From positions 32,001-96,000 of IMG/VR virus record IMGVR_UViG_3300030330_005091: a stretch of DNA of 64,000 bases. The stretch is one strand, 5' to 3'. The stretch is from a virus. Lineage: Duplodnaviria > Caudoviricetes. Shown one piece after another: positions 23,158 to 56,100 of this stretch (positions within the stretch are counted from its first letter, which is position 1; each line of letters begins with the position of its first letter). The notes under the pieces were generated by a model, which worked only from the letters and a program-made list of their open reading frames with translations, did not search any database and had not been told where the DNA came from. The translations under genes were made by a program, and so were the position numbers.

Positions 23158-23233
23158 TGGAGCCGCCTATCAGACTTGAACTGATGACCTACGGTTTACA
23201 AAACCGTTGCTCTACCAACTGAGCTAAGGCGGC
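23158..23233 (-). tRNA. tRNA-Thr(UGU)
   Basis: 76-nt cloverleaf, ACGGT-TTTGTAA-ACCGT anticodon arm, encoded CCA. Confidence 0.95.
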
Positions 23234-23382
23234 GTTATTTTTTCTGTTGTGTTTTCAAGCTTTTGTTGAATCTCAAAAATTGATTGTCCATGCGGTATAA
23301 GATGTGATAAAAACCAAAGATAAACCATCATACCTATCAATACTGACATAAAAGCTTGTAATACTAAATCGCCTACATCCAT
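23224..23382 (-). CDS. small membrane protein
   Basis: MDVGDLVLQAFMSVLIG... one TM helix; the upstream extension in the ORF track is tRNA sequence. Confidence 0.5.
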   Translation of the reverse strand: MDVGDLVLQAFMSVLIGMMVYLWFLSHLIPHGQSIFEIQQKLENTTEKITPP

Positions 23383-23394
23383 ATAGTAGGTAGG

Positions 23395-23487
23395 CTGGAG
23401 GGGAAGGATTCGAACCTTCAAGGTGAACTTTCGTAAATCACCGCCCGGGAAACAGCCGGGTGCGTTTGCCAATTCCGCCACCCCCCA
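23395..23487 (-). tRNA. atypical long-variable-arm tRNA with GUU (Asn) anticodon
   Basis: 7-bp acceptor U1-A72, G73; D-arm GCGGAATTGGCAAACGC; CCCGG-CTGTTTC-CCGGG; GGTGA...TCACC variable stem; GAAGG-TTCGAAT-CCTTC. Confidence 0.8.
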
Positions 23488-23595
23488 AAAATAAAACCGG
23501 TTTTCTGTCTAGAACTAGGATAACCGAAAACCTTTGCCTACGTGACGATCGGCAACCACGTTCCGCTTATAATGCGAGCAGAACAGCGCAGAAGA

Positions 23596-23658
23596 TTATT
23601 TGCAGCAGCAATCACACTCACAAGGTGCAATGCAACCGCAACAGTTACATTTTTTCAT
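23596..23658 (-). CDS. 20-aa Cys-rich (metallothionein-like) peptide
   Basis: GGAGG SD; MKKCNCCGCIAPCECDCCCK. Confidence 0.6.
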   Translation of the reverse strand: MKKCNCCGCIAPCECDCCCK

Positions 23659-23687
23659 GATTAACCCTCCCACAATAGATAGACCAG

Positions 23688-24164
23688 TTACGCATCAAAT
23701 GTAAGAGTTCCGTTATCAGTTTCTACAGAAACACTCCAACCTGAAATAAAAGGCATTACTTTCATAAAATTTTCATATGGAATTTGAACTTCAGCTGTAA
23801 GAGTAGTGAATCCACGTTTATGGTCATACTTTTCTGTTGAGTATTCAATTAATTCAACATCGTAAAAATTTTCAGTAATTGTATTTGCAAGATATTCTTC
23901 GAATTCATAACTTCCTCTTTCATAATCCTCAAGATAATCTTCAGAGCGAAGATGTTCAATTACATTTCCTTGCCATCGAGTTCTTACATCAAGCCCTGAT
24001 TGTGCTATAAGTGACGCAAATTCACTAACTACCGATGTTTCAGATAAAGCAGTTTCAATTTCTGTTTCGTTAAAATGAAACACATCTGCACCTTCTTCGT
24101 AGCGAAGATTAATCATAGCATTATTGGTCAAATTTAATGATTGTAGCCGCTCTATTGTGTTCAT
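23688..24164 (-). CDS. acidic hypothetical protein
   Basis: GGAGG SD before MNTIERL. Confidence 0.7.
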   Translation of the reverse strand: MNTIERLQSLNLTNNAMINLRYEEGADVFHFNETEIETALSETSVVSEFASLIAQSGLDVRTRWQGNVIEHLRSEDYLEDYERGSYEFEEYLANTITENFYDVELIEYSTEKYDHKRGFTTLTAEVQIPYENFMKVMPFISGWSVSVETDNGTLTFDA

Positions 24165-24165
24165 G

Positions 24166-24342
24166 TTATCTTCCTCCAGAATTGCTGCCATCAACGCGCT
24201 CAGTTAGATATTTTACATCGCCAGCAACAGATGTTTTAAACTCTCTCAACTCATTTTGAAGAATATAAATCTGATCAACAAGTTGATTTACTCTTGCTTG
24301 CAATTGTTCTGTTTGTTTTGTTAGTTGTGTTGTTGTAGCCAT
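24166..24342 (-). CDS. small coiled-coil protein (not in ORF track)
   Basis: AAGGAG SD; MATTTQLTKQTEQLQARVNQLVDQ..., 58 aa. Confidence 0.65.
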   Translation of the reverse strand: MATTTQLTKQTEQLQARVNQLVDQIYILQNELREFKTSVAGDVKYLTERVDGSNSGGR

Positions 24343-24382
24343 TGGCTTCTCCTTTTGTTTAATATTATAATTTTAATTAATG

Positions 24383-24459
24383 TGGCTGCCCCTCGCGGAC
24401 TCGAACCGCGGACCCGCTGATTAACAGTCAGCTGCTCTAACCAACTGAGCTAAGGGGCA
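24383..24459 (-). tRNA. tRNA-Asn(GUU)
   Basis: Canonical 77-nt cloverleaf, GCTGA-CTGTTAA-TCAGC, U1-A72, G73, CCA. Confidence 0.96.
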
Positions 24460-27923: not shown

Positions 27924-28255
27924 TGGTGGAGATGGCGGGAGTCGAACCCGCGTCCAAAATAATTCCAATTGTAGTCATTCACAAGCTTATTCAGTTTCTA
28001 TCACAAACTGACAAAGGTAGATGGTTTTAAAATATCGCTTACCATCCTGTTGCGATAAGTTTTTTGATTTTTACAACTTGTCTGTTGTTTTGATTAGATT
28101 GGATAGAAGGCTCTAATCAGCCTCCCTATTAAGCGGCTAAGCGCTGTTCGAAGTGATTGTTGTTGTTTGCAACTATTGTGTTTGAACTGTTAAGGTCGTA
28201 TCTAACCTACTTGCACTATTCCTTTTTATTACCTTGTCGAATCCAAGTCATCCCC
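27924..28255 (-). ncRNA. ssrA: tmRNA
   Basis: 5' GGGGATGA..GGATTCGAC; 3' GACGCGGGTTCGACTCCCGCCATCTCCACCA with G3-U wobble; tag ORF 28129-28170 ANNNNHFEQRLAA. Confidence 0.95.
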
Positions 28256-49718: not shown

Positions 49719-51212
49719 CTAAATTTTTTTCTTTGTAAAAGGGTTAATGCCTCTTGACACAGGATTGTCTTTTGTCATATTTTCATATTGGCTTAAAGGT
49801 TGCATGTTGTCTAAACTCCAACACGAGATAAACGCAGGATCATCCAAGTCAGTGTATACAAAGCTTGATCGCGGCACAATGTGGTCGATTTGCCAATAAT
49901 ATTGATCAGAGCCCCGACCGTGATTGAGCCAATTCATTTTCTCGTTAAATTGATTTTGAATATGCTCAATAAAATCGTCTAAATTATATCCGCAGTTTTC
50001 TTGAAGTTTTGACCAAATAAGTGTATTGCTAATATCTTCCGCCCAATAACCGCGGTGCCTTGCAAGATCTTGTTTGATTGTTGTAGCAATCAAGGTCCTA
50101 AACTTAAGACGATAGTTTTTCTTAGTTTTTTCTTTGATTGATTCTTTATTTAGTGCCCATCGCTTTTTAGATTTATTGCTTAGGCACTGCCGGCAAGAAG
50201 TTGTGGCACGTCCTTTTTTGATAGGCGCAAAGTAAAAGTTATAATAAGGCTGCGTAACCGAACATGTTGAACAGGTAAACTCTGTAACAAACCCAGAATT
50301 GTTACGGCGTGCATAACGCTTGTTAGCTTCAATGGATTTCTCTAAAGTCGCTAGCGAATATTTACAGCCTTCATGCCAATTGGAGAGCCTTGATTCAAAA
50401 GAATTAAACAGCTTACGTTCGCGATACTCCACAGATTGCCAATCATAATCCGCATTTGGCACACGATCACGCTGCCTTTGTAAGCGGCGCTCATAATTCG
50501 CAGCCTTGTCAGCTGCGCGCTGCAGTTGTCTATCGATGCGCTCCTTTTCCCTACGCGTCCGGGCCTCACGGCGCGCTGCTTCCGCTGCAGCCACACGCTT
50601 AATTCTTTCCTCCTCTCGCGCTTTTATCTCTAACCTACGGGCTTCTACGGCGTCATTTCTATCTTTAATAAACTTTTCTACGTTCTTTTTAAGATATAGA
50701 TGTTGTGTAGTGCACGTGCTATGAGTCTGCTGCCACAACATATCTGGTTTAATTATCTTACTGTAGTTTGTATCAAACGTGTTGCTAGTTATACCAATTA
50801 TCTCGGCTGCTTCTTTCCTCGTTATATAACCTTCTGGAATCGGAGTCTCTGCATAGACTAGCTTTTCAATTGACTCTGGCGGCCAAAACCTTGCATTTCC
50901 TCCACCTGGCGCTGATATCAATTTTCCTTCAACTGTTGATAACTTTTTGGCGCGGTGGTGCACTGCTGTTTTAGTAATACCTAATTTATCCGCCAACTGA
51001 TCAGCTGTCAACCAGTTTTCTTTATACCAATTGTAACGTTCTATACGCTTTTTCTTAGCTGCTTTCTCTAAATCACCTTTTCGAATCCATCCTTCTGGCT
51101 TTCTTCGATTACGATTGTGCCATTTTTTGCTGCATATCTGTGAGCAATATTTTCTGGGTCTATTGCTGTTACTCGGTGGGTTTATAGCTCCGCAATATAA
51201 ACAGTTTGCCAT
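49719..51212 (-). CDS. multidomain HNH endonuclease (Zn-ribbon, two HTH-like segments, coiled coil, Zn-finger, HNH)
   Basis: CLYC..YCSQIC; LTADQLADKLGI; YITRKEAAEIIGI; CSTC..CRQC; WQIDHIVP..CWSLDNMQPL..EN..K. Confidence 0.8.
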   Translation of the reverse strand: MANCLYCGAINPPSNSNRPRKYCSQICSKKWHNRNRRKPEGWIRKGDLEKAAKKKRIERYNWYKENWLTADQLADKLGITKTAVHHRAKKLSTVEGKLISAPGGGNARFWPPESIEKLVYAETPIPEGYITRKEAAEIIGITSNTFDTNYSKIIKPDMLWQQTHSTCTTQHLYLKKNVEKFIKDRNDAVEARRLEIKAREEERIKRVAAAEAARREARTRREKERIDRQLQRAADKAANYERRLQRQRDRVPNADYDWQSVEYRERKLFNSFESRLSNWHEGCKYSLATLEKSIEANKRYARRNNSGFVTEFTCSTCSVTQPYYNFYFAPIKKGRATTSCRQCLSNKSKKRWALNKESIKEKTKKNYRLKFRTLIATTIKQDLARHRGYWAEDISNTLIWSKLQENCGYNLDDFIEHIQNQFNEKMNWLNHGRGSDQYYWQIDHIVPRSSFVYTDLDDPAFISCWSLDNMQPLSQYENMTKDNPVSRGINPFTKKKI

Positions 51213-51232
51213 GGTCTCTCCTGGTATATTAT

Positions 51233-51261
51233 ATTATATCATGGTCGTGCGATATGTGCAA
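51233..51261 (-). promoter_or_regulatory. sigma70-like promoter TTGCAC-N17-TATAAT for HNH gene
   Basis: Hexamers, spacing and AGGAG SD. Confidence 0.7.
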
Positions 51262-51327
51262 GCTAAAATCTGGAATTTTACTTTGGTGAAATTTTTGGCC
51301 GCAGATCGAAAACAGGCTTAGCACCGC

Positions 51328-51461
51328 TGTCAAGGTCCTGTCAAGTCATCGAGAGGTATATTCGGGTAGGTGGGGGGTAGGGGGGAGGTCCCACCACATA
51401 CTGACAGCATTTTGACAGCATGTTAAATGTATGTCAAAAACAATATGTCAATCATTTGTCA
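51328..51461. repeat. cluster of 11-bp-spaced TGTCA/TGACA pairs around a G-run
   Basis: Pairs at 51328/51339, 51402/51413 (inverted), 51421/51432, 51446/51457; G-run 51364-51388. Confidence 0.8.
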
Positions 51462-51737
51462 GTATTGCATGCACTCTTATAATACCCATAGCTTAATATT
51501 AGTATCTGACTGTATACCATCATGATAATAGGCGTCCAACCTACCATATCAATGCTTTTATCTATTATTTTATGTGTTCTCGGACACTTTTCGCGCAGTC
51601 GTCGCTTTATATGTGACAATCTTTGTCGCATAATCCTCTCCCATTAAGGCGAACATAAACTAAGTAGCTGATATTGTTGGCCTTTTATTTAATGTATTCT
51701 CGCATAAATGTGACAGCATGCGACAGCATATGGCCCG

Positions 51738-51854
51738 TTAAAAGCCGGATACCATCAAGTCCGCGTGTGATGCGACGGCATACAGCCACAAGAACGCAGC
51801 GCCGAGCGCAAGGCCAGCACATGCGTCTGCTACTTGGTCTTTGAAAGTATACAT
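51738..51854 (-). CDS. 38-aa hydrophobic peptide (not in ORF track)
   Basis: GGAGG SD, own promoter; MYTFKDQVADACAGLALGAAFLWLYAVASHADLMVSGF. Confidence 0.6.
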   Translation of the reverse strand: MYTFKDQVADACAGLALGAAFLWLYAVASHADLMVSGF

Positions 51855-51866
51855 TAAACCTCCATT

Positions 51867-51966
51867 ATCATAACACATTACGTGCTACATGTCAACAATA
51901 AAAACGAAATGTCAAAAGAATGTCAAGAAATATGTGCTTGACAGCGAGAGAGTGTATAGGTATAAA
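51867..51966. promoter_or_regulatory. divergent sigma70 promoter pair sharing a TGTCA box pair
   Basis: Minus TTGACA(51890-95)-N17-TATGAT; plus TTGACA(51938-43)-N17-TATAAA; boxes at 51910 and 51921. Confidence 0.7.
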
Positions 51967-52263
51967 GTCTGTATAAAAATATCACACACAACCATCACAC
52001 TCAAACAAACATAAAGTCTAACTAACGCATATCCACCCCACAATATCCCACCTTAAACCACCATAACCCACAATACACAACTTTAATCATTGAGATATGA
52101 GATACAAACAAACACAGTAAACATCAGATAAACAAATACACTTAACATAAACTAACTCCTATTACGAATAAGATAATCAATAACCACTACTGATACGGTT
52201 GTACCTGTAATATAACCAATAATAAACATTTGCATAAGTATATTCTTTTGTTGTAGTCTCGGC

Positions 52264-53091
52264 CTATTTCTTCTTGGGGCGAGCCTTCATGATGAAACGC
52301 TCCTCAACCATCAGAGTGGTCGCCTTGCCTACAGGCAGCAGCTTGTAAACCTTGGCACCGCGAGCGGCAGATGTGACAGGCTTGGCATCAGTCTCGATAA
52401 CCATAAGTGTTACATTGCGCTTAAGGTAAGCCCCGTCAAGATACCGAACACCGGAAGGAGCGTTTGCGCGAAAAGTGACGAGCGAGCCCGCTGGATACTT
52501 GGCAGGCGCGTGGTGTGAAGCGAGCACCTTTTGTGCATACTTGTTTTTAACCATCTTATTATATTGTGAATAAGTTGGAATAAAAGTATCGTTGCCAATA
52601 ATCTCACGGGCTGTATCTTTGAAGTAACCCGTGGTCATATAATAGTTGGCAACCACGATAGCATCAGCACGGAGATCAGGATTATTTGTATAACTCTCGA
52701 CCCACTTCTGACGCTCGGCCAGTGCAGCATCATCATGCTCTGCTTCGATCTTGCGTAGAATCTCAAGCTGACGATCTGACAGGCGGCGATCACCTTTGAC
52801 TTGACTGGTCAGGCTCTCAACAAAGCCAGCAGCCCAGCTTGAAGGCTCGCAGCGCATGCTGAGAAGATCCAAGCGCATCAAGAACGTCTTGTGCTTCTCG
52901 GTAGCAGCCAACAACTTCTCAGGGGAATAGCGATCCTCCAGTGTAGCAACCCACTTGACACGACCAGCGGACAAGCGACCTTTGCGCTCATAGTAGGACA
53001 GAAGCGATTGAGCAAAGTCCTTATCACGCGCTGAGATAGCGGGATTGTTGATCAGAACTTCAAGGCGGGTGCGGTAGGTTGGACGAGCCAC
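52264..53091 (-). CDS. hypothetical protein, two helical repeats plus C-terminal SH3-like domain
   Basis: F..SL.......RLS repeated twice; KYPAGSLVTF. Confidence 0.7.
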   Translation of the reverse strand: MARPTYRTRLEVLINNPAISARDKDFAQSLLSYYERKGRLSAGRVKWVATLEDRYSPEKLLAATEKHKTFLMRLDLLSMRCEPSSWAAGFVESLTSQVKGDRRLSDRQLEILRKIEAEHDDAALAERQKWVESYTNNPDLRADAIVVANYYMTTGYFKDTAREIIGNDTFIPTYSQYNKMVKNKYAQKVLASHHAPAKYPAGSLVTFRANAPSGVRYLDGAYLKRNVTLMVIETDAKPVTSAARGAKVYKLLPVGKATTLMVEERFIMKARPKKK

Positions 53092-53486: not shown

Positions 53487-54740
53487 TTAGCAGTCGATTG
53501 CGATAACACGTTCATTGGTTTGGAAGTAGGGGCGAGCAGCGTGGACCTTGGTAGTCATCCACATACGTTGGCACTTGGATGCGATAGGCTTCGGAGCGCA
53601 AAGGTCAGTCAAGACAATGTGACCGTCAAAGTCGCCATCATTGACGAACTTGGTCGGCGCGTTGAAGCAAGTGCCGCCAGTCAACACGCGCTCGGTTTTC
53701 TTGGTTTGACCTTTCTTCCAAGTATATACCTTGTCAACGGCTACCTCGGTGTCGAATGGTACAACCGTGAACTCGGCAATCTCGGCCAGCTTGTTCAACT
53801 CGGAGAAGAACGCGGCGAGCATGCCATCATCAACCGATCCAGACTGGTCGATGGAGATAGCGATCTTGGCTTGACGACGCACGCGCTTGCCAGGGTGGAT
53901 CTTTGGGAACCGCTTGTTCAGGCGTCGAGGGGTCGAACGCTTGTCAGCACGTTGTGAGGTCTTGACGAAGTAACGAAGAACTTTGCGCCAATCAACCTTG
54001 GTCGCAACGCGGTCCATAATATCTTGACGCATACCAGACGAGACTGAGCCCCAGTTACGTGCCTTCTCAGCTTCCTCGGCAGCTTGCTTTACAGCTTCCT
54101 TCAATCGCTCTTTAGCAATCTCTTGAGTGGTGCTATCGCCATCACCGAACTGATCGTGACTGTCAAGTGAATCCATGCCACCGAAGGGATCACCATCGCC
54201 TTCACCGGGCTCGCCTTGACCATCGCCGTTGCTGTCTTGGTTCTCGGCCATATCTTTCAAGGCTTCGAGATACCATTCGTAGGTCTTGTTAGCAGGCAAG
54301 TGAGCAAACGGGCCTTCGCCGGGAAATACACCCTTCATGCCTTGACCATCGGCCATGATTGGGCCGGGGTCAGCTTCACACGGCAGCTTACCAGCCATTT
54401 CAGGCAGGCCGTTGATGGCAAGGTCCATCGCAATGTTGTCGATACGCTTGAGGCCATCGGCAGGCTTGCGGCCAGTCACGTGCTCGAAGATGATGTGATA
54501 GAACTCATGCATGAGGACACCAAGCTGATGCTCAGGCTTGAGAGCACCCATGAACTCAGGGTTATAAAGCAACTCGAACTGAGCGGTGTCGGGGTTGACA
54601 CGGACGCCAGCGGTCGGAAGGCTGGTAGTCGCGGTCTTGTCAATGCGACGAGACAGAGCGGCAAAGAACGGCTCGCGCATAAGCAGGCGAGCAGTGTGCA
54701 TGTTGAGATTGAAGGGCTTGATGGTCTTGTCGTCGGACAT
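53487..54740 (-). CDS. metallopeptidase-like (HExxH) + vWA protein, MoxR partner
   Basis: LMHEFYH; IDQSGSV; GGT.F; LTD; start at MSDDK after AGGAG. Confidence 0.88.
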   Translation of the reverse strand: MSDDKTIKPFNLNMHTARLLMREPFFAALSRRIDKTATTSLPTAGVRVNPDTAQFELLYNPEFMGALKPEHQLGVLMHEFYHIIFEHVTGRKPADGLKRIDNIAMDLAINGLPEMAGKLPCEADPGPIMADGQGMKGVFPGEGPFAHLPANKTYEWYLEALKDMAENQDSNGDGQGEPGEGDGDPFGGMDSLDSHDQFGDGDSTTQEIAKERLKEAVKQAAEEAEKARNWGSVSSGMRQDIMDRVATKVDWRKVLRYFVKTSQRADKRSTPRRLNKRFPKIHPGKRVRRQAKIAISIDQSGSVDDGMLAAFFSELNKLAEIAEFTVVPFDTEVAVDKVYTWKKGQTKKTERVLTGGTCFNAPTKFVNDGDFDGHIVLTDLCAPKPIASKCQRMWMTTKVHAARPYFQTNERVIAIDC

Positions 54741-54763
54741 GAATCTCTCCTGATTACCTATAT

Positions 54764-54817
54764 AATATAGCACGGGATGAGTGAAAAAGCAAGGGTTAAG
54801 TTGTCAAGGAAATGTCA
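54764..54817 (-). promoter_or_regulatory. boxed early promoter cassette 2
   Basis: CTGACA-N5-TTGACA, -35 TTGCTT, N17, TATATT. Confidence 0.85.
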
Positions 54818-55021
54818 GGAGATGGGAACACTAAAGGCAGCGTTGATCACTGTGTCGGCATACCATTGGGCACCGTCAGAACTGCCGTCAAATAGCCTGT
54901 AATGGCGTCTGTTGGCGTCAAGCTGTCCCCACTCCTTCTTGTAACTCTCACGCACTTCAACGACCAGACAGGGGCACTTATCGTGCTCCCTGATTAATAG
55001 GTCGCCTACCTTGAACTTCAA
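54815..55021 (-). CDS. small SH3/KOW-like protein
   Basis: FKVGDLLIR. Confidence 0.6.
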   Translation of the reverse strand: MKFKVGDLLIREHDKCPCLVVEVRESYKKEWGQLDANRRHYRLFDGSSDGAQWYADTVINAAFSVPIS

Positions 55022-56100
55022 GAGTTACCGCCAAGGATCTCAACAAGGTGGTCAGAGACACGGCGACCATCGGACGCCTCGGCCTTGTGGAGTGCCACAA
55101 CATTGTCAATGTTGTCGGTGTCACCGAGAACGGTCCACAACTTCATGGCGACCTCGGAAGGCAGGGTTACGAAGTAGTTGGCGAGGTTAGTGACCTGAGC
55201 CTCGGTCAGAGTCTCAGAGAACACATCAGATGCCTCGAACTTCTCAATCATGGCAGCGTGGTCATTGATACCCCACTGCTCGGTCTTCTCGATTTCACCG
55301 TTGTCAAGAATGTCAGCGATGGTCACTTGCCATTCGTACTTCTCAACGAAATCGCGGAGAGCGACAGCAGCCTCGAACCCGACGAAGGCAGTCGCGAGGT
55401 TGAACAGAAGGTCACGGTCGCCTTCCTCACCGAATACGCCGGTTGAAACTGCGGTATCGTTGAACCGCTTCCAGCTACGACGTGACGGGTAAACCTTGTT
55501 AGGCTCGAAGTCACCGCGATGCTCAAGGTGCATGCGGTTTTGGTTGATGAAGTCCCAGAGGATGCCATCAGTGCGGTCGGTCGCCCACTTCAACCAATCC
55601 TCATCGGAAGGCTCGACATCGAACACGGTCCAGCGGTCCAACTCGGCAGGGTCCATTTCGCCAACTTGGTATTGAGCACCGTGCTCGCCACCGTTGACAG
55701 CGGCAACGATCAGGGTGTCAGGGTGCAGACGCCAGCCGTTCAGCTTGCGGCTGTCGGTCAACTCGAAAAGACCCTGACGGACTTCCACAGTCGCACGATC
55801 AACCTCATCGAGGAACAGCATCACGGGCTGCTCACACGCGGTCACAAGCCAGTCAGGGGCGTTCCACGTGGTAGCCTTGCGGCCATTGATCTCGGTGTCT
55901 GCCGTGTCAGGCAGACCGAGAAGATCACCTTCGGTCATCTGGCTGGCACGACGCTCGACCACTGGAAGGTCGCGAGCAGCGGCGATCTGGTAGACCACCT
56001 CGGACTTGCCGACACCGTGACGACCGCGCAGAAGCACGGGCAGCTTGTTGTCGAGGATGTGAGGAGCGACGGTAGTGAATGTTGCGAAGTCGATAGCCAT
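55018..56100 (-). CDS. MoxR-like AAA+ ATPase
   Basis: GRHGVGKS Walker A, LFLDEVDR Walker B, MDPAELDRW, PSRRSW. Confidence 0.92.
   Translation of the reverse strand: MAIDFATFTTVAPHILDNKLPVLLRGRHGVGKSEVVYQIAAARDLPVVERRASQMTEGDLLGLPDTADTEINGRKATTWNAPDWLVTACEQPVMLFLDEVDRATVEVRQGLFELTDSRKLNGWRLHPDTLIVAAVNGGEHGAQYQVGEMDPAELDRWTVFDVEPSDEDWLKWATDRTDGILWDFINQNRMHLEHRGDFEPNKVYPSRRSWKRFNDTAVSTGVFGEEGDRDLLFNLATAFVGFEAAVALRDFVEKYEWQVTIADILDNGEIEKTEQWGINDHAAMIEKFEASDVFSETLTEAQVTNLANYFVTLPSEVAMKLWTVLGDTDNIDNVVALHKAEASDGRRVSDHLVEILGGNS

What the first reader, a model, noticed from the sequence alone, without database searches (positions are those of the whole stretch)
51213..52263. 1-kb largely non-coding hub at a sharp composition boundary
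Seen: sequence is AT-rich to the left and clearly more GC-rich from 52.26 kb. The gap holds at least five 11-bp-spaced TGTCA/TGACA pairs (the same motif as the promoter boxes), a TGTGACA-N5-TGTCGCA palindrome (~51612-51630), T-tracts and three promoters. Inference: genome terminus/packaging site or replication origin, bound by the same factor as the early promoters.
Basis: partly seen in the sequence, partly recalled or inferred. Interest (0 to 1): 0.7.

Follow-up and report, generated by a model that had tools for sequence, protein, structure and literature searches.

The report
Control junction ending phage early-gene island
This 1-kb stretch is not a genome end. It is a conserved control junction where a marine T4-type phage's GC-rich early-gene island meets the AT-rich rest of the genome, and it holds four tiny membrane-peptide genes, clusters of the early-promoter box and one ultra-conserved C/G-run element of unproven function.

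Summary
The observation mostly holds. GC jumps from 0.31 to 0.54 within 250 bp at the stop of the 275-aa gene. TGTCA-N6-TGTCA occurs 12 times in the window (0.18 expected), four times in this gap. The gap is not "largely non-coding". Four small ORFs cover about 43% of it; three of them (27, 38 and 59 aa) are clearly conserved.

The window lies in a circularly assembled 195.7-kb T4-type phage contig. More than 30 independent marine viral contigs keep the same gene order and the same GC step, so a chimeric join is excluded. A fixed terminus is very unlikely: the contig closes elsewhere, the terminase gene is 92 kb away, and relatives' contig starts near the gap are scattered.

The GC step is a third-codon-position shift. 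Codons read by the phage's own tRNAs are 2-8 times rarer in the island.

The gap holds two box-type promoters, a GTGG array with a 10-bp period, a cluster of boxes in both orientations, and a single-copy core of about 31 bp (C6-T-C6 in relatives, C6-TA-C6 here) that is nearly invariant in 35 contigs. Both genome-wide extremes of strand asymmetry lie here.

My best reading is a terminator-plus-promoter boundary of the early region. A replication origin is neither supported nor excluded. The scan had already found the box promoter cassette on other DNA.

The parts
52264..53091 (-). Last gene of the GC-rich island (275 aa, no family hit). The GC step falls at its stop codon.
   Evidence: homologues in 12 viral contigs
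52152..52235 (-). Micro-gene A: 27 aa, single hydrophobic helix (MQMFIIGYITG...).
   Evidence: Kept at 27-30 aa in 7 loci; some relatives have a strong AGGAGG ribosome-binding site
52083..52148 (-). Micro-gene B: 21 aa, hydrophobic, AGGAG ribosome-binding site inside the end of A. Length and sequence vary in relatives (20-39 aa). Probable gene.
51969..52088 (-). G/T-rich, C-poor spacer holding four to five GTGG repeats at an exact 10-bp period (CCAC on + at 52038, 52048, 52058, 52068). Strongest G>C stretch of the gene strand in the whole genome (41 G, 3 C in 120 nt).
   Evidence: (D2); repeats and C-depletion kept in L001, L002, L003, L008, L009
51867..51950 (-). Early-type promoter P_C: -35 TTGACA 51895-51890, 17-bp spacer, -10 TATGAT 51872-51867. 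Two upstream TTGACAT boxes (TGTCA on + at 51910 and 51921), one inverted box (51939), and the conserved upstream block TTTATACCTAT...CTGTCAAGCAC.
   Evidence: 11 of 12 match, TG-extended
51738..51854 (-). Micro-gene C: 38 aa (MYTFKD...), GGAGG ribosome-binding site, one transmembrane helix.
   Evidence: Exactly 38 aa in 5 compared loci, with synonymous changes
51632..51737 (-). Conserved leader upstream of gene D (GCGAGAATACATTAAATAAAAAG.CTAACAATA...ACTTAGTTAG.GTTTGCCTTAA.GGGAGAGGA). Contains the GTGACAGCAT/GCGACAGCAT pair (+ strand 51711, 51721). No consensus RNA fold.
51452..51631 (-). Micro-gene D: 59 aa, basic N-terminus plus one transmembrane helix.
   Evidence: 70 homologue clusters of 52-86 aa (69 of them 52-63 aa), unnamed; no PHROG hit
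51398..51465 (.). Box cluster without a canonical -10: three boxes in gene orientation (TGTCA on + at 51432, 51446, 51457) facing two inverted boxes (TGACA on + at 51402, 51413).
   Evidence: (I1); relatives have 3-6 boxes here in variable number and orientation
51346..51397 (.). Single-copy core. Gene strand in relatives: ACCCCCCTCCCCCCTACCCGGAATGTATGTC. Here: CCTCCCCCCTACCCCCCACCTACCCGAATATACCTC. On + it reads TATATT (51357-51362), CGGG, then G-runs (51364-51389). Strongest C>G stretch of the gene strand in the genome.
51283..51344 (-). Promoter P_down in cassette geometry: two boxes (TGTCA on + at 51339 and 51328), weak -35 position 51318-51313, -10 AAAAAT 51296-51291. From the start of the promoter-proximal box hexamer to the start of the -10 is 37 nt, against 38 nt in island cassettes. 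Conserved tail GCTAAGSCC-GTTTTCGATC-GCGCC-TAAAAAT.
   Evidence: plus direct counting; inferred, no transcript data
51233..51260 (-). Own promoter of the inserted nuclease gene. The scan scores TGCACA-16-TATAAT, which can equally be read as TTGCAC-17-TATAAT.
49719..51212 (-). 497-aa HTH plus endonuclease-VII/HNH-like gene. Present only here and in L006/L007 and absent at the same spot in about 30 relatives. Probably a free-standing homing endonuclease, inserted about 160 nt downstream of the core.
   Evidence: (phrog_1035, E 2e-15)

Best explanation
The gap is the conserved downstream border of the phage's early-gene island. It is a transcription-control junction, not a physical end of the genome.

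Shown:
- The island (window 52.3 to about 69.6 kb) is GC-rich because of third codon positions, and it avoids the codons read by the phage's own tRNAs.
- Its genes sit behind sigma70-type promoters that carry two extra TTGACA boxes 11 bp apart.
- The gap belongs compositionally to the AT-rich side and is about 43% coding. It holds four micro-genes for one-helix membrane peptides in two small units.
- Its non-coding parts are one box-type promoter (P_C), a GTGG array with a 10-bp period, a cluster of boxes in both orientations, a single-copy C-run/G-run core, and a second promoter in cassette geometry (P_down) that heads the next conserved gene block.

Inferred mechanism:
- A still unidentified DNA-binding protein reads the TGACA boxes head-to-tail on one face of the helix. 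The 7+4-nt, 11-bp geometry and the TGTCA core are those of OmpR/PhoB-type response-regulator sites. This protein serves the early promoters and binds most densely here.
- Transcripts leaving the island run into the most C-rich, G-poor stretch of the whole gene strand (the core). I take this to be a Rho-type termination or insulation signal.
- P_down restarts transcription immediately behind the core. That makes a terminator-plus-promoter composite like the PeSL cassettes of T4-type phages, with a C-run in place of the stem-loop.
- The sharp GC step marks the change from genes translated with the host's tRNA pool to genes that rely on phage tRNAs.
For: - T4-type phage, circular assembly.
- Synteny and GC step kept in relatives.
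- GC3 is 0.54 in the island against 0.31 elsewhere. ATA, AGA, AAA, TTA and ACA make up 0.12/0.11/0.38/0.04/0.23 of their codon families in the island against 0.32/0.46/0.70/0.33/0.42 elsewhere.
- Boxes are non-random, confined to genome 83.3-101.6 kb, and densest in the gap.
- Micro-genes are conserved.
- P_C scores 11 of 12 with a TG extension.
- P_down has the cassette geometry in the window, L026, L030, L036, L038, L040 and L048.
- The core is single-copy, nearly invariant in 35 contigs and always between gene D and the next block. It is absent from 185,579 prokaryote genomes.
- The top C>G window of the gene strand is 51329-51388 (28 C, 7 G). The next-ranked windows fall on island cassettes.
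- No intrinsic terminator on the gene strand in the gap.
- Genes just downstream carry a different, late-type motif, ACTATTTA (44 on the gene strand, 9 on the other).
- PHO-box geometry: PMC4415409. PeSL concept: PMC4122927.
Against: - There are no transcript, termination or binding data. Rho dependence is inferred from composition alone.
- Thirty-one nearly invariant bases are far more than a rut site needs, so the core probably also has a sequence-specific reader.
- P_down has a poor -35 and an unusual -10 (AAAAAT). About two-thirds of the relatives compared lack the two boxes in front of it.
- No OmpR/PhoB-type domain (PF00486), MotA or AsiA was found in the phage. The MotA and AsiA searches had no positive control, so they say little.
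- The boxes are also perfect -35 hexamers, so a sigma-related reading is not excluded.
- In island promoters the boxes lie on the opposite strand and further upstream than in PhoB-activated promoters. Their 4-nt spacers are purine-rich rather than A/T-rich.
Confidence: 0.5

Rival explanations
1. Replication origin of the T4 oriE/oriF kind. An early-type promoter makes an RNA that stays annealed as an R-loop and primes DNA synthesis, with the evenly spaced boxes acting as iteron-like helper sites. Two candidate R-loop zones exist. One is the G-rich GTGG spacer, read by gene-strand transcripts. The other is the G6-TA-G6 run (G6-A-G6 in relatives), which sits 1-7 nt after a -10-like TAnATy on the + strand. 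That layout recalls CSB II of human mitochondrial DNA.
For: - Evenly spaced direct repeats plus early-type promoters.
- T4 oriE has evenly spaced 12-nt repeats and depends on an early promoter. oriF and oriG are a promoter plus an A+T-rich unwinding element. T4 origins tend to lie at shifts in compositional bias (PMC3016281).
- Both extremes of G/C strand asymmetry in the genome are in the gap.
- The + strand reading GACA-TAnATy-CCGGG-TA-G6-A-G6 is kept in 21 of 22 aligned loci.
- In the window, two CTGTCAA boxes sit 12 nt upstream of TATATT.
- The core is single-copy.
- The detrended AT skew has its minimum at genome 83,296.
Against: - There is no GC-skew switch here. The detrended extremes lie at 22.4 and 126.6 kb, about half a genome apart.
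- The AT-skew minimum is explained by the island's own composition.
- The -7 base of the + strand hexamer is C in 7 of the 21 anchored loci (one anchor, L026, is out of register), and there is no conserved -35.
- The boxes serve some 16 promoters (11 exact-pattern copies in the whole island), so they are not origin-specific.
- No initiator gene was identified next to the gap.
Confidence: 0.2
2. Recombination and insertion hot spot at the edge of a hyperplastic region. The conserved core is the cleavage target or homology anchor of the neighbouring free-standing endonuclease, and the box arrays are shared homology where modules are exchanged.
For: - The 497-aa endonuclease-VII/HNH-like gene is an insertion about 160 nt from the core, in the window and in L006/L007 only.
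- Both nuclease-carrying genomes have variant cores (ATACCTC and TATATC instead of TATGTC).
- The next gene after the core alternates between two alternatives (Zn79 or p91b).
- 13 of 35 contigs break within 1.5 kb upstream of the core and none within 3.8 kb downstream.
- PeSL precedent: PMC4122927.
Against: - Only two independent nuclease-carrying lineages are available.
- This explains why a nuclease would sit here, not why the core is conserved in phages that lack it.
- Contig breaks can equally come from strain variation and repeated cassettes in the island.
Confidence: 0.1
3. An antisense RNA gene. A + strand promoter (TATATT 51357-51362) makes a roughly 320-nt RNA that is antisense to micro-gene D and its ribosome-binding site. 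It would control a small membrane peptide as in type I toxin-antitoxin pairs.
For: - Gene D is a 59-aa peptide with one hydrophobic helix.
- A -10-like hexamer is kept on the + strand.
- In the window, a hairpin plus T-run on the + strand at about 51646-51692 could end such an RNA (read).
Against: - The hairpin is not kept in L003, L005, L009 or L010, and RNAalifold finds no consensus for it.
- The promoter is weak in most relatives.
- There is no evidence that gene D is toxic.
Confidence: 0.07
4. Physical genome terminus or packaging (pac/cos) site, or a chimeric assembly join.
For: - Sharp composition step.
- Many relatives' contigs start just upstream of the core.
- The same 17-mer lies 26-28 nt from contig ends in an unrelated contig family.
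Against: - The contig closes elsewhere.
- The phage has a T4-type capsid protein, and T4 genomes have no defined ends (PMC3016281).
- The terminase gene is 92 kb away.
- Contig start points are scattered over 25-2476 nt, some inside coding sequence.
- More than 20 contigs span the gap with the same order and the same GC step.
Confidence: 0.03

Closest known systems
PeSL (promoter-early stem-loop) cassettes at hyperplastic regions of T4-type phages (Arbiol 2010; Comeau 2014, PMC4122927)
   Same: Composite end-of-unit plus sigma70 early-promoter elements, repeated through a variable early region. [quoted passage not shown]
   Different: No stem-loop terminator was found on the gene strand. A C-rich, G-poor run stands in its place. 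The promoters carry two extra TTGACA boxes at an 11-bp period. The gap also has a single-copy, nearly invariant core of about 31 bp and micro-genes, none of which is described for PeSLs.
T4 replication origins oriE (evenly spaced 12-nt repeats, early promoter) and oriF/oriG (promoter plus A+T-rich unwinding element, R-loop) (PMC3016281)
   Same: Evenly spaced short direct repeats beside early-type promoters. Location at a shift in compositional bias. Strongly G-rich and C-rich stretches that would favour RNA-DNA hybrids.
   Different: No sequence similarity. The repeat period is 11 nt and the same repeats serve about 16 promoters. No replication data exist. The GC-skew extremes lie elsewhere.
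PHO boxes, the PhoB/OmpR-family response-regulator sites (PMC4415409)
   Same: Direct repeats of 11-nt units (7 conserved plus 4 variable) with the core TGTCA. Tandem arrays of 2-6 units. In the window, two CTGTCAA units lie 12 nt upstream of a TATATT on the + strand.
   Different: In the island promoters the units are on the other strand, lie at about -61 to -41, and accompany a normal -35 instead of replacing it. The unit is wTGTCAAG with purine-rich spacers. No binding has been shown and the host is unknown.
Rho-dependent terminators (rut sites) separating immediate-early from delayed-early genes in T4 (my own knowledge of T4 transcription)
   Same: A C-rich, G-poor RNA stretch at the end of an early unit, with no hairpin and no U-run.
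   Different: The C-rich part is only 30-60 nt long and is conserved base for base, which rut sites are not. Termination has not been measured.
CSB II of human mitochondrial DNA (G-run, A, G-run) downstream of the light-strand promoter (my own knowledge; the C-run form appears in PMC3446888)
   Same: Almost the same G6-A-G6 / C6-T-C6 sequence, directly downstream of a promoter-like element on the G-rich strand.
   Different: Unrelated system and polymerase. Transcription of the G-rich strand is not shown here.

Membership tests
Phage genome terminus / pac or cos site | DNA ends (reads or contigs) pile up at one fixed position | tested here: not met
   The own contig closes elsewhere. Relatives' contig starts are scattered 25-2476 nt upstream of the core. 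No read data were available.
Phage genome terminus / pac or cos site | Site lies in or next to the terminase genes | tested here: not met
   The large terminase is at genome 175.3-176.9 kb, 92 kb from the gap.
Chimeric assembly join | The junction is unique to this assembly | tested here: not met
   The same gene order and GC step are found in more than 20 independent contigs.
T4-type origin (oriE / oriF / oriG) | Promoter whose transcript enters an easily melted or hybrid-prone element | tested here: inconclusive
   Promoters P_C and P_down and a + strand -10-like hexamer are present. G-rich and C-rich extremes are present. Function is unknown.
T4-type origin (oriE / oriF / oriG) | Evenly spaced direct repeats (oriE) | tested here: met
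   11-bp TGACA arrays and a 10-bp GTGG array.
T4-type origin (oriE / oriF / oriG) | Replication starts there | not testable with these tools
   No replication or coverage data. GC-skew extremes are at 22.4 and 126.6 kb, not here.
PeSL cassette | Sigma70-type early promoter | tested here: met
   P_C is TTGACA-17-TATGAT with a TG extension. The island cassettes are shown.
PeSL cassette | Stem-loop terminator directly upstream of the promoter | tested here: not met
   No terminator-like hairpin on the gene strand in 51000-52400. No consensus fold.
PeSL cassette | Marks indel or shuffling points between close relatives | tested here: met
   The nuclease gene is present or absent and the next gene alternates beside the core.
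PHO box (PhoB site) | Two or more 11-nt direct repeats, 7 conserved plus 4 variable, with a TGTCA core | tested here: met
   Definition taken from PMC4415409.
PHO box (PhoB site) | Replaces the -35, about 10 bp upstream of the -10, CTGTCAT on the coding strand, A/T-rich spacer | tested here: not met
   Island boxes are on the other strand, lie at -61 to -41 and have a -35 present. Spacers are purine-rich. Only the + strand arrangement at 51328-51362 comes close, with a 12-nt gap.
PHO box (PhoB site) | Bound by phosphorylated PhoB | not testable with these tools
   Host unknown. No Trans_reg_C domain in the phage.
Rho-dependent terminator | C-rich, G-poor, unstructured RNA upstream of the release zone | tested here: met
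   The top C>G window of the gene strand genome-wide is 51329-51388. No consensus structure.
Rho-dependent terminator | Rho-dependent 3' ends | not testable with these tools
   No RNA data.
Free-standing homing endonuclease (for 49719-51212) | Nuclease domain plus DNA-binding domain, and presence/absence at one intergenic spot among close relatives | tested here: met
   phrog_1035 endonuclease VII, E 2e-15; weak HTH hits. Present in 3 of about 35 loci. Cleavage not tested.
Type I toxin-antitoxin | Small hydrophobic peptide gene overlapped by a conserved antisense RNA gene with its own promoter and terminator | tested here: inconclusive
   The peptide gene is present. The antisense -10 is partly kept. 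The terminator is not conserved.

The most novel reading that the evidence does not exclude
The nearly invariant single-copy core (a -10-like TAnATy followed at once by G6-A-G6 on the + strand) and its flanking arrays of 11-bp boxes form a transcription-primed replication origin. This origin would be shared by a whole clade of uncultured marine T4-type phages. A promoter-proximal G-run would lock the nascent RNA onto the template as an R-loop or hybrid quadruplex, much as CSB II does in mitochondrial DNA. The box-binding protein, possibly a host response regulator such as PhoB, would gate both early transcription and the start of replication.
Probability: 0.15. Interest if true: 0.7.

Novelty: new variant of a known kind. 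Interest (0 to 1): 0.42.

Why it matters
The work replaces an attractive but wrong idea (a genome end or misassembly) with a testable map of how a widespread group of ocean T4-type phages separates its early genes from the rest.

- The composition step is tied to codon use and to the phage's own tRNAs. That gives a simple reason for a sharp GC boundary inside a phage genome, and it hints at a host of roughly 50-60% GC.
- The gap adds three conserved micro-genes to the annotation.
- It defines a phage-specific, single-copy signal of about 31 bp that could serve as a marker for this clade.
- It shows that the TGACA boxes have the geometry of response-regulator sites, which gives a concrete candidate class for the still unknown reader of the clade's early promoters.
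- It explains why metagenome assemblies of these phages tend to break at this point.

Tried and rejected
- Rfam scan of 50500-53000 on both strands at E up to 1: no hit. No tRNA in the gap.
- GenBank phage collection: no DNA or protein match for the gap, the 275-aa protein, gene D or the capsid region, so no cultured relative is available.
- RNAalifold on the core (22 sequences) and on the leader of gene D (9 sequences): no conserved structure. I dropped the ideas of a structured RNA, an intrinsic terminator and a conserved antisense terminator.
- Long-range pairing of the inverted box pairs around the core: present in the window and L002, absent in L001, L006 and L008. Rejected as an RNA or cruciform element.
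- The core as a micro-ORF (the GYPPPPYP frame): start codons and ends are inconsistent, there is no ribosome-binding site and no wobble pattern. Rejected.
- Searches of the phage genome:
  - MraZ (considered because of the 10-bp GTGG repeats): none.
  - OmpR/PhoB-type domain: none.
  - MotA and AsiA: none, but these searches had no positive control.
  - T7-like RNA polymerase: the only weak hit is the terminase.
  - The 947-aa polymerase-like protein of the unrelated 17-mer family: none.
- One viral-contig scan was wasted on a pattern with the wrong spacer length.
- The + strand promoter at 51456-51483 (TTGTCA-16-TATAAT) rests on the YYK codons of gene D, and its spacing is not kept in L001. 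I treat it as fortuitous.
- The core is absent from 185,579 prokaryote genomes, so it gives no clue to the host.
Full report
**What the window is.** The window is bases 32,001-96,000 of a single 195,690-bp viral contig. The first 98 bases of the contig recur about 100 bases from its end (the last two of those 100 bases differ), so it was assembled as a circle. The contig encodes a T4-type major capsid protein (PF07068, 198 bits). Practically every long ORF is on the minus strand. Nothing in the GenBank phage collection matches it, so it belongs to an uncultured lineage.

**Checking the observation.**
- The composition step is real and sharp. GC is 0.30-0.43 per kb to the left and 0.46-0.57 from 52 to 63 kb. 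In 250-bp steps it goes from 0.31 to 0.54 exactly where the 275-aa gene (52264-53091, minus strand) stops.
- The GC-rich stretch is an island of about 17 kb (genome about 84.3-101.6 kb) inside a 33-44% GC genome.
- TGTCA-N6-TGTCA occurs 12 times in the window against 0.18 expected, and four of these lie in the gap. Genome-wide, the 11-bp spacing stands alone: 13+2 pairs against 0-3 at other spacings. All pairs but one lie in genome 83.3-101.6 kb.
- The gap's 2-kb bin has the highest box count in the genome.
- The palindrome at 51612-51630 exists, but it is the first seven codons of a conserved gene and is not kept in the nearest relative.

**The gap is not largely non-coding.** Read on the minus strand and compared with seven relatives, it contains four small ORFs.
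- Gene A: 27 aa, 52152-52235.
- Gene B: 21 aa, 52083-52148. It is variable in relatives, so it is only a probable gene.
- Gene C: 38 aa, 51738-51854, with a GGAGG ribosome-binding site. It is exactly 38 aa in five loci.
- Gene D: 59 aa, 51452-51631.

Each protein has one hydrophobic helix. Gene D has 70 homologue clusters of 52-86 aa (69 of them 52-63 aa) in public metagenomes, none of them named. Together the four genes cover about 43% of the 1051 bases.

**Not a join and not an end.**
- Relatives were found through the 275-aa protein and through the core motif. They keep one gene order: DUF2201 protein, p100, p275, micro-genes, core, then Zn79 or p91b, p91, p74, p93, p65, p149, p239.
- They also keep the same GC step, 0.50-0.59 upstream against 0.36-0.45 downstream. 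That excludes a chimeric join.
- For a terminus, the evidence is negative. The contig closes 83 kb away. T4 genomes are circularly permuted and have no telomeres (PMC3016281). The large terminase gene lies at 175.3-176.9 kb.

**An assembly-break hot spot.** One thing looked at first like support for a terminus. Of 35 contigs with the core, 13 begin within 1.5 kb upstream of it, including contigs of 34, 56, 98 and 104 kb. None ends within 3.8 kb downstream. However, the start points are scattered: 25, 27, 72, 285, 384, 408, 504, 981, 985, 1339, 1369, 1447 and 1488 nt upstream. Some fall in box arrays and others inside coding sequence. This is what an assembler does at the edge of a strain-variable, repeat-laden region. 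It is not what a fixed DNA end gives.

**Why the composition changes.** The step is a third-codon-position effect. GC3 is 0.54 in island genes and 0.31 in the rest, while GC2 is 0.39 against 0.37. The phage carries tRNAs for ATA, AGA, AAA, TTA, ACA and AAY. Except for Asn (AAY), whose directly read codon AAC is commoner in the island, those codons are 2-8 times rarer within their families in the island than elsewhere. The island genes sit behind sigma70-type promoters, whereas genes just downstream of the gap, like the structural genes, carry a different strand-specific motif, ACTATTTA (44 against 9). I infer that the island is the early class, translated with the host's tRNA pool, and that the rest leans on phage tRNAs. 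The boundary is therefore one of expression class.

**Anatomy of the non-coding parts, in the direction of transcription.**
1. After genes A and B comes a G/T-rich, C-poor spacer with GTGG at an exact 10-bp period. There are four to five copies here, and they are kept in L001, L002, L003, L008 and L009. This is the strongest G>C stretch of the gene strand in the whole genome: 41 G and 3 C in 120 nt.
2. Next is promoter P_C: TTGACA, 17 bp, TATGAT with a TG extension (an 11 of 12 match). Upstream of it lie two TTGACAT boxes 11 bp apart and a block that is invariant in all relatives.
3. Genes C and D follow, separated by a conserved leader with no consensus fold.
4. Then comes a box cluster with no canonical -10 (the scan's only candidate there is a weak TTGACA-17-CAAAAT): three boxes in gene orientation facing two inverted ones. 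Relatives have 3-6 boxes here, in variable number and orientation. Sites for a protein behave this way; an RNA structure does not.
5. Then the core. In relatives it reads ACCCCCCTCCCCCCTACCCGGAATGTATGTC; in the window it is a variant with C6-TA-C6. It occurs once per genome and is nearly invariant in 35 contigs that are otherwise about 65-90% identical. It is absent from 185,579 prokaryote genomes. It has no consensus RNA fold, no coding signature, and no Rfam match for the window's copy. It is the strongest C>G stretch of the gene strand in the genome: 28 C and 7 G in 60 nt. The next-ranked C>G windows fall on island promoter cassettes.
6. Two further boxes and a conserved tail follow (GCTAAGSCC-GTTTTCGATC-GCGCC-TAAAAAT). 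In the window and six relatives these reproduce the island cassette geometry. The distance from the start of the promoter-proximal box hexamer to the start of the -10 is 37 nt against 38 nt, with a weak -35 and an AAAAAT -10. I call this P_down. The next conserved gene block starts 135-440 nt after the core in every locus.
7. In this genome and in L006/L007 only, a 497-aa HTH plus endonuclease-VII-like gene with its own promoter is inserted right there. It is most likely a free-standing homing endonuclease.

**How it most likely works.** The island cassettes and the gap share one logic: a C-rich, G-poor stretch, two boxes, then a promoter. T4-type phages are known to use composite terminator-plus-early-promoter cassettes (PeSLs) in their variable regions (PMC4122927). 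Here no stem-loop is present and a C-run stands in its place. So my best reading (about 0.5) has three steps.
- Early transcripts are ended or insulated at the core by a Rho-type mechanism.
- P_down restarts transcription for the next block.
- The box cluster is the strongest docking place of the protein that reads the early-promoter boxes.

The box unit is wTGTCAAG plus three purine-rich bases, repeated every 11 bp. This is the geometry of PHO boxes and other OmpR/PhoB-family sites, which are 11-nt units with 7 conserved bases and the core CTGTCAT in E. coli (PMC4415409). Membership is not shown. In the island promoters the units lie on the other strand and at -61 to -41, next to a normal -35. 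The phage itself has no such domain. The 31-base invariance of the core also exceeds what a rut site needs, so a sequence-specific reader of the core remains likely and is unidentified.

**The origin idea.** It cannot be dismissed. T4 oriE combines evenly spaced direct repeats with an early promoter. oriF and oriG are a promoter plus an unwinding element that holds an R-loop. T4 origins tend to sit at shifts of compositional bias (PMC3016281). On the + strand the core reads GACA-TAnATy-CCGGG-TA-G6-A-G6 in 21 of 22 loci. In the window this is a perfect TATATT with two CTGTCAA boxes 12 nt upstream. An RNA started there would begin with the G-runs, which is reminiscent of mitochondrial CSB II (my own knowledge). 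Against this reading:
- The -7 base of the hexamer is C in 7 of the 21 anchored loci (one anchor, L026, is out of register).
- No conserved -35 exists.
- The detrended GC skew peaks at 22.4 and 126.6 kb, not here.
- The AT-skew minimum at genome 83,296 follows from the island's own composition.

I give the origin reading about 0.2.

**Relation to earlier notes of this scan.** A first-reader note (e1-5780624) had seen the G-run between inverted box pairs and the TATATT before it. I confirm both. I add the conservation, synteny and single-copy status of the core, the strand-asymmetry extremes, the micro-genes, the codon and tRNA explanation of the GC step, and the assembly-break pattern.

**Verdict.** This is a real, conserved and unusually dense control junction. 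Its reading as a terminus or packaging site is wrong and its reading as an origin is unproven. It is a new variant of the terminator-plus-promoter boundaries known from T4-type phages, with one element (the core) whose function is open.

Noticed in passing
L028, L032, L049, L055, L017/L044, L058 (viral contigs unrelated to the window): The exact 17-mer ACCCCCCTCCCCCCTAC also occurs in an unrelated contig family, as a hairpin GAGGGGGGT-N12-ACCCCCCTC. It lies 300-650 nt beyond the 3' end of a 900-950-aa ORF that has HTH ends and a weak RdRP-like (PF05183) hit, possibly a YonO/crAss-like single-subunit RNA polymerase. In four contigs the motif is 26-28 nt from the contig end.
   Followed up: partly
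whole genome; e.g. window 48103, 48628, 22891, 32923: The motif ACTATTTA(T/A) occurs 44 times on the gene strand against 9 on the other. It usually lies 10-25 nt before a ribosome-binding site, including upstream of structural genes. It is probably this phage's late-promoter element (T4's is TATAAATA).
   Followed up: partly
window 27924-28255 (-); 23158-24459 (-); genome 99,022-100,804: The phage carries a tmRNA (tag ANNNNHFEQRLAA) and at least nine tRNA genes. Five of the tRNA genes lie inside the upstream part of the GC-rich island.
   Followed up: no
window 49719-51212 (-): A 497-aa HTH plus endonuclease-VII/HNH-like gene is an insertion found only here and in L006/L007. Both carriers have variant bases in the otherwise invariant core about 160 nt away, as expected if the core region were the nuclease's target.
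   Followed up: partly
whole genome: The detrended cumulative GC skew has its maximum at 22.4 kb and its minimum at 126.6 kb, about half a genome apart. This is a weak hint of where replication-related bias, if there is any, would turn.
   Followed up: no
window 59752, 57724, 54817 (island cassettes): Several island promoters have C-rich -35/-10 spacers (AACCCCTCCC...GATGC-TATATT) that resemble the core (CCCCTCCCCCC...GGAATG-TATGTC). The core may derive from a cassette whose spacer grew by about 13 nt.
   Followed up: partly
genome 141,288-141,297 (outside the window): A run of 10 N lies in the contig, so the assembly has one scaffolding gap.
   Followed up: no
window 53487-54773 and 55018-56100 (-): The island genes nearest the gap are a DUF2201 metallopeptidase/VWA-like protein and an AAA_5 (MoxR/CobS-like) ATPase. 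Both are well conserved (about 70-95% identity; one distant locus at 54%) across the relatives.
   Followed up: no
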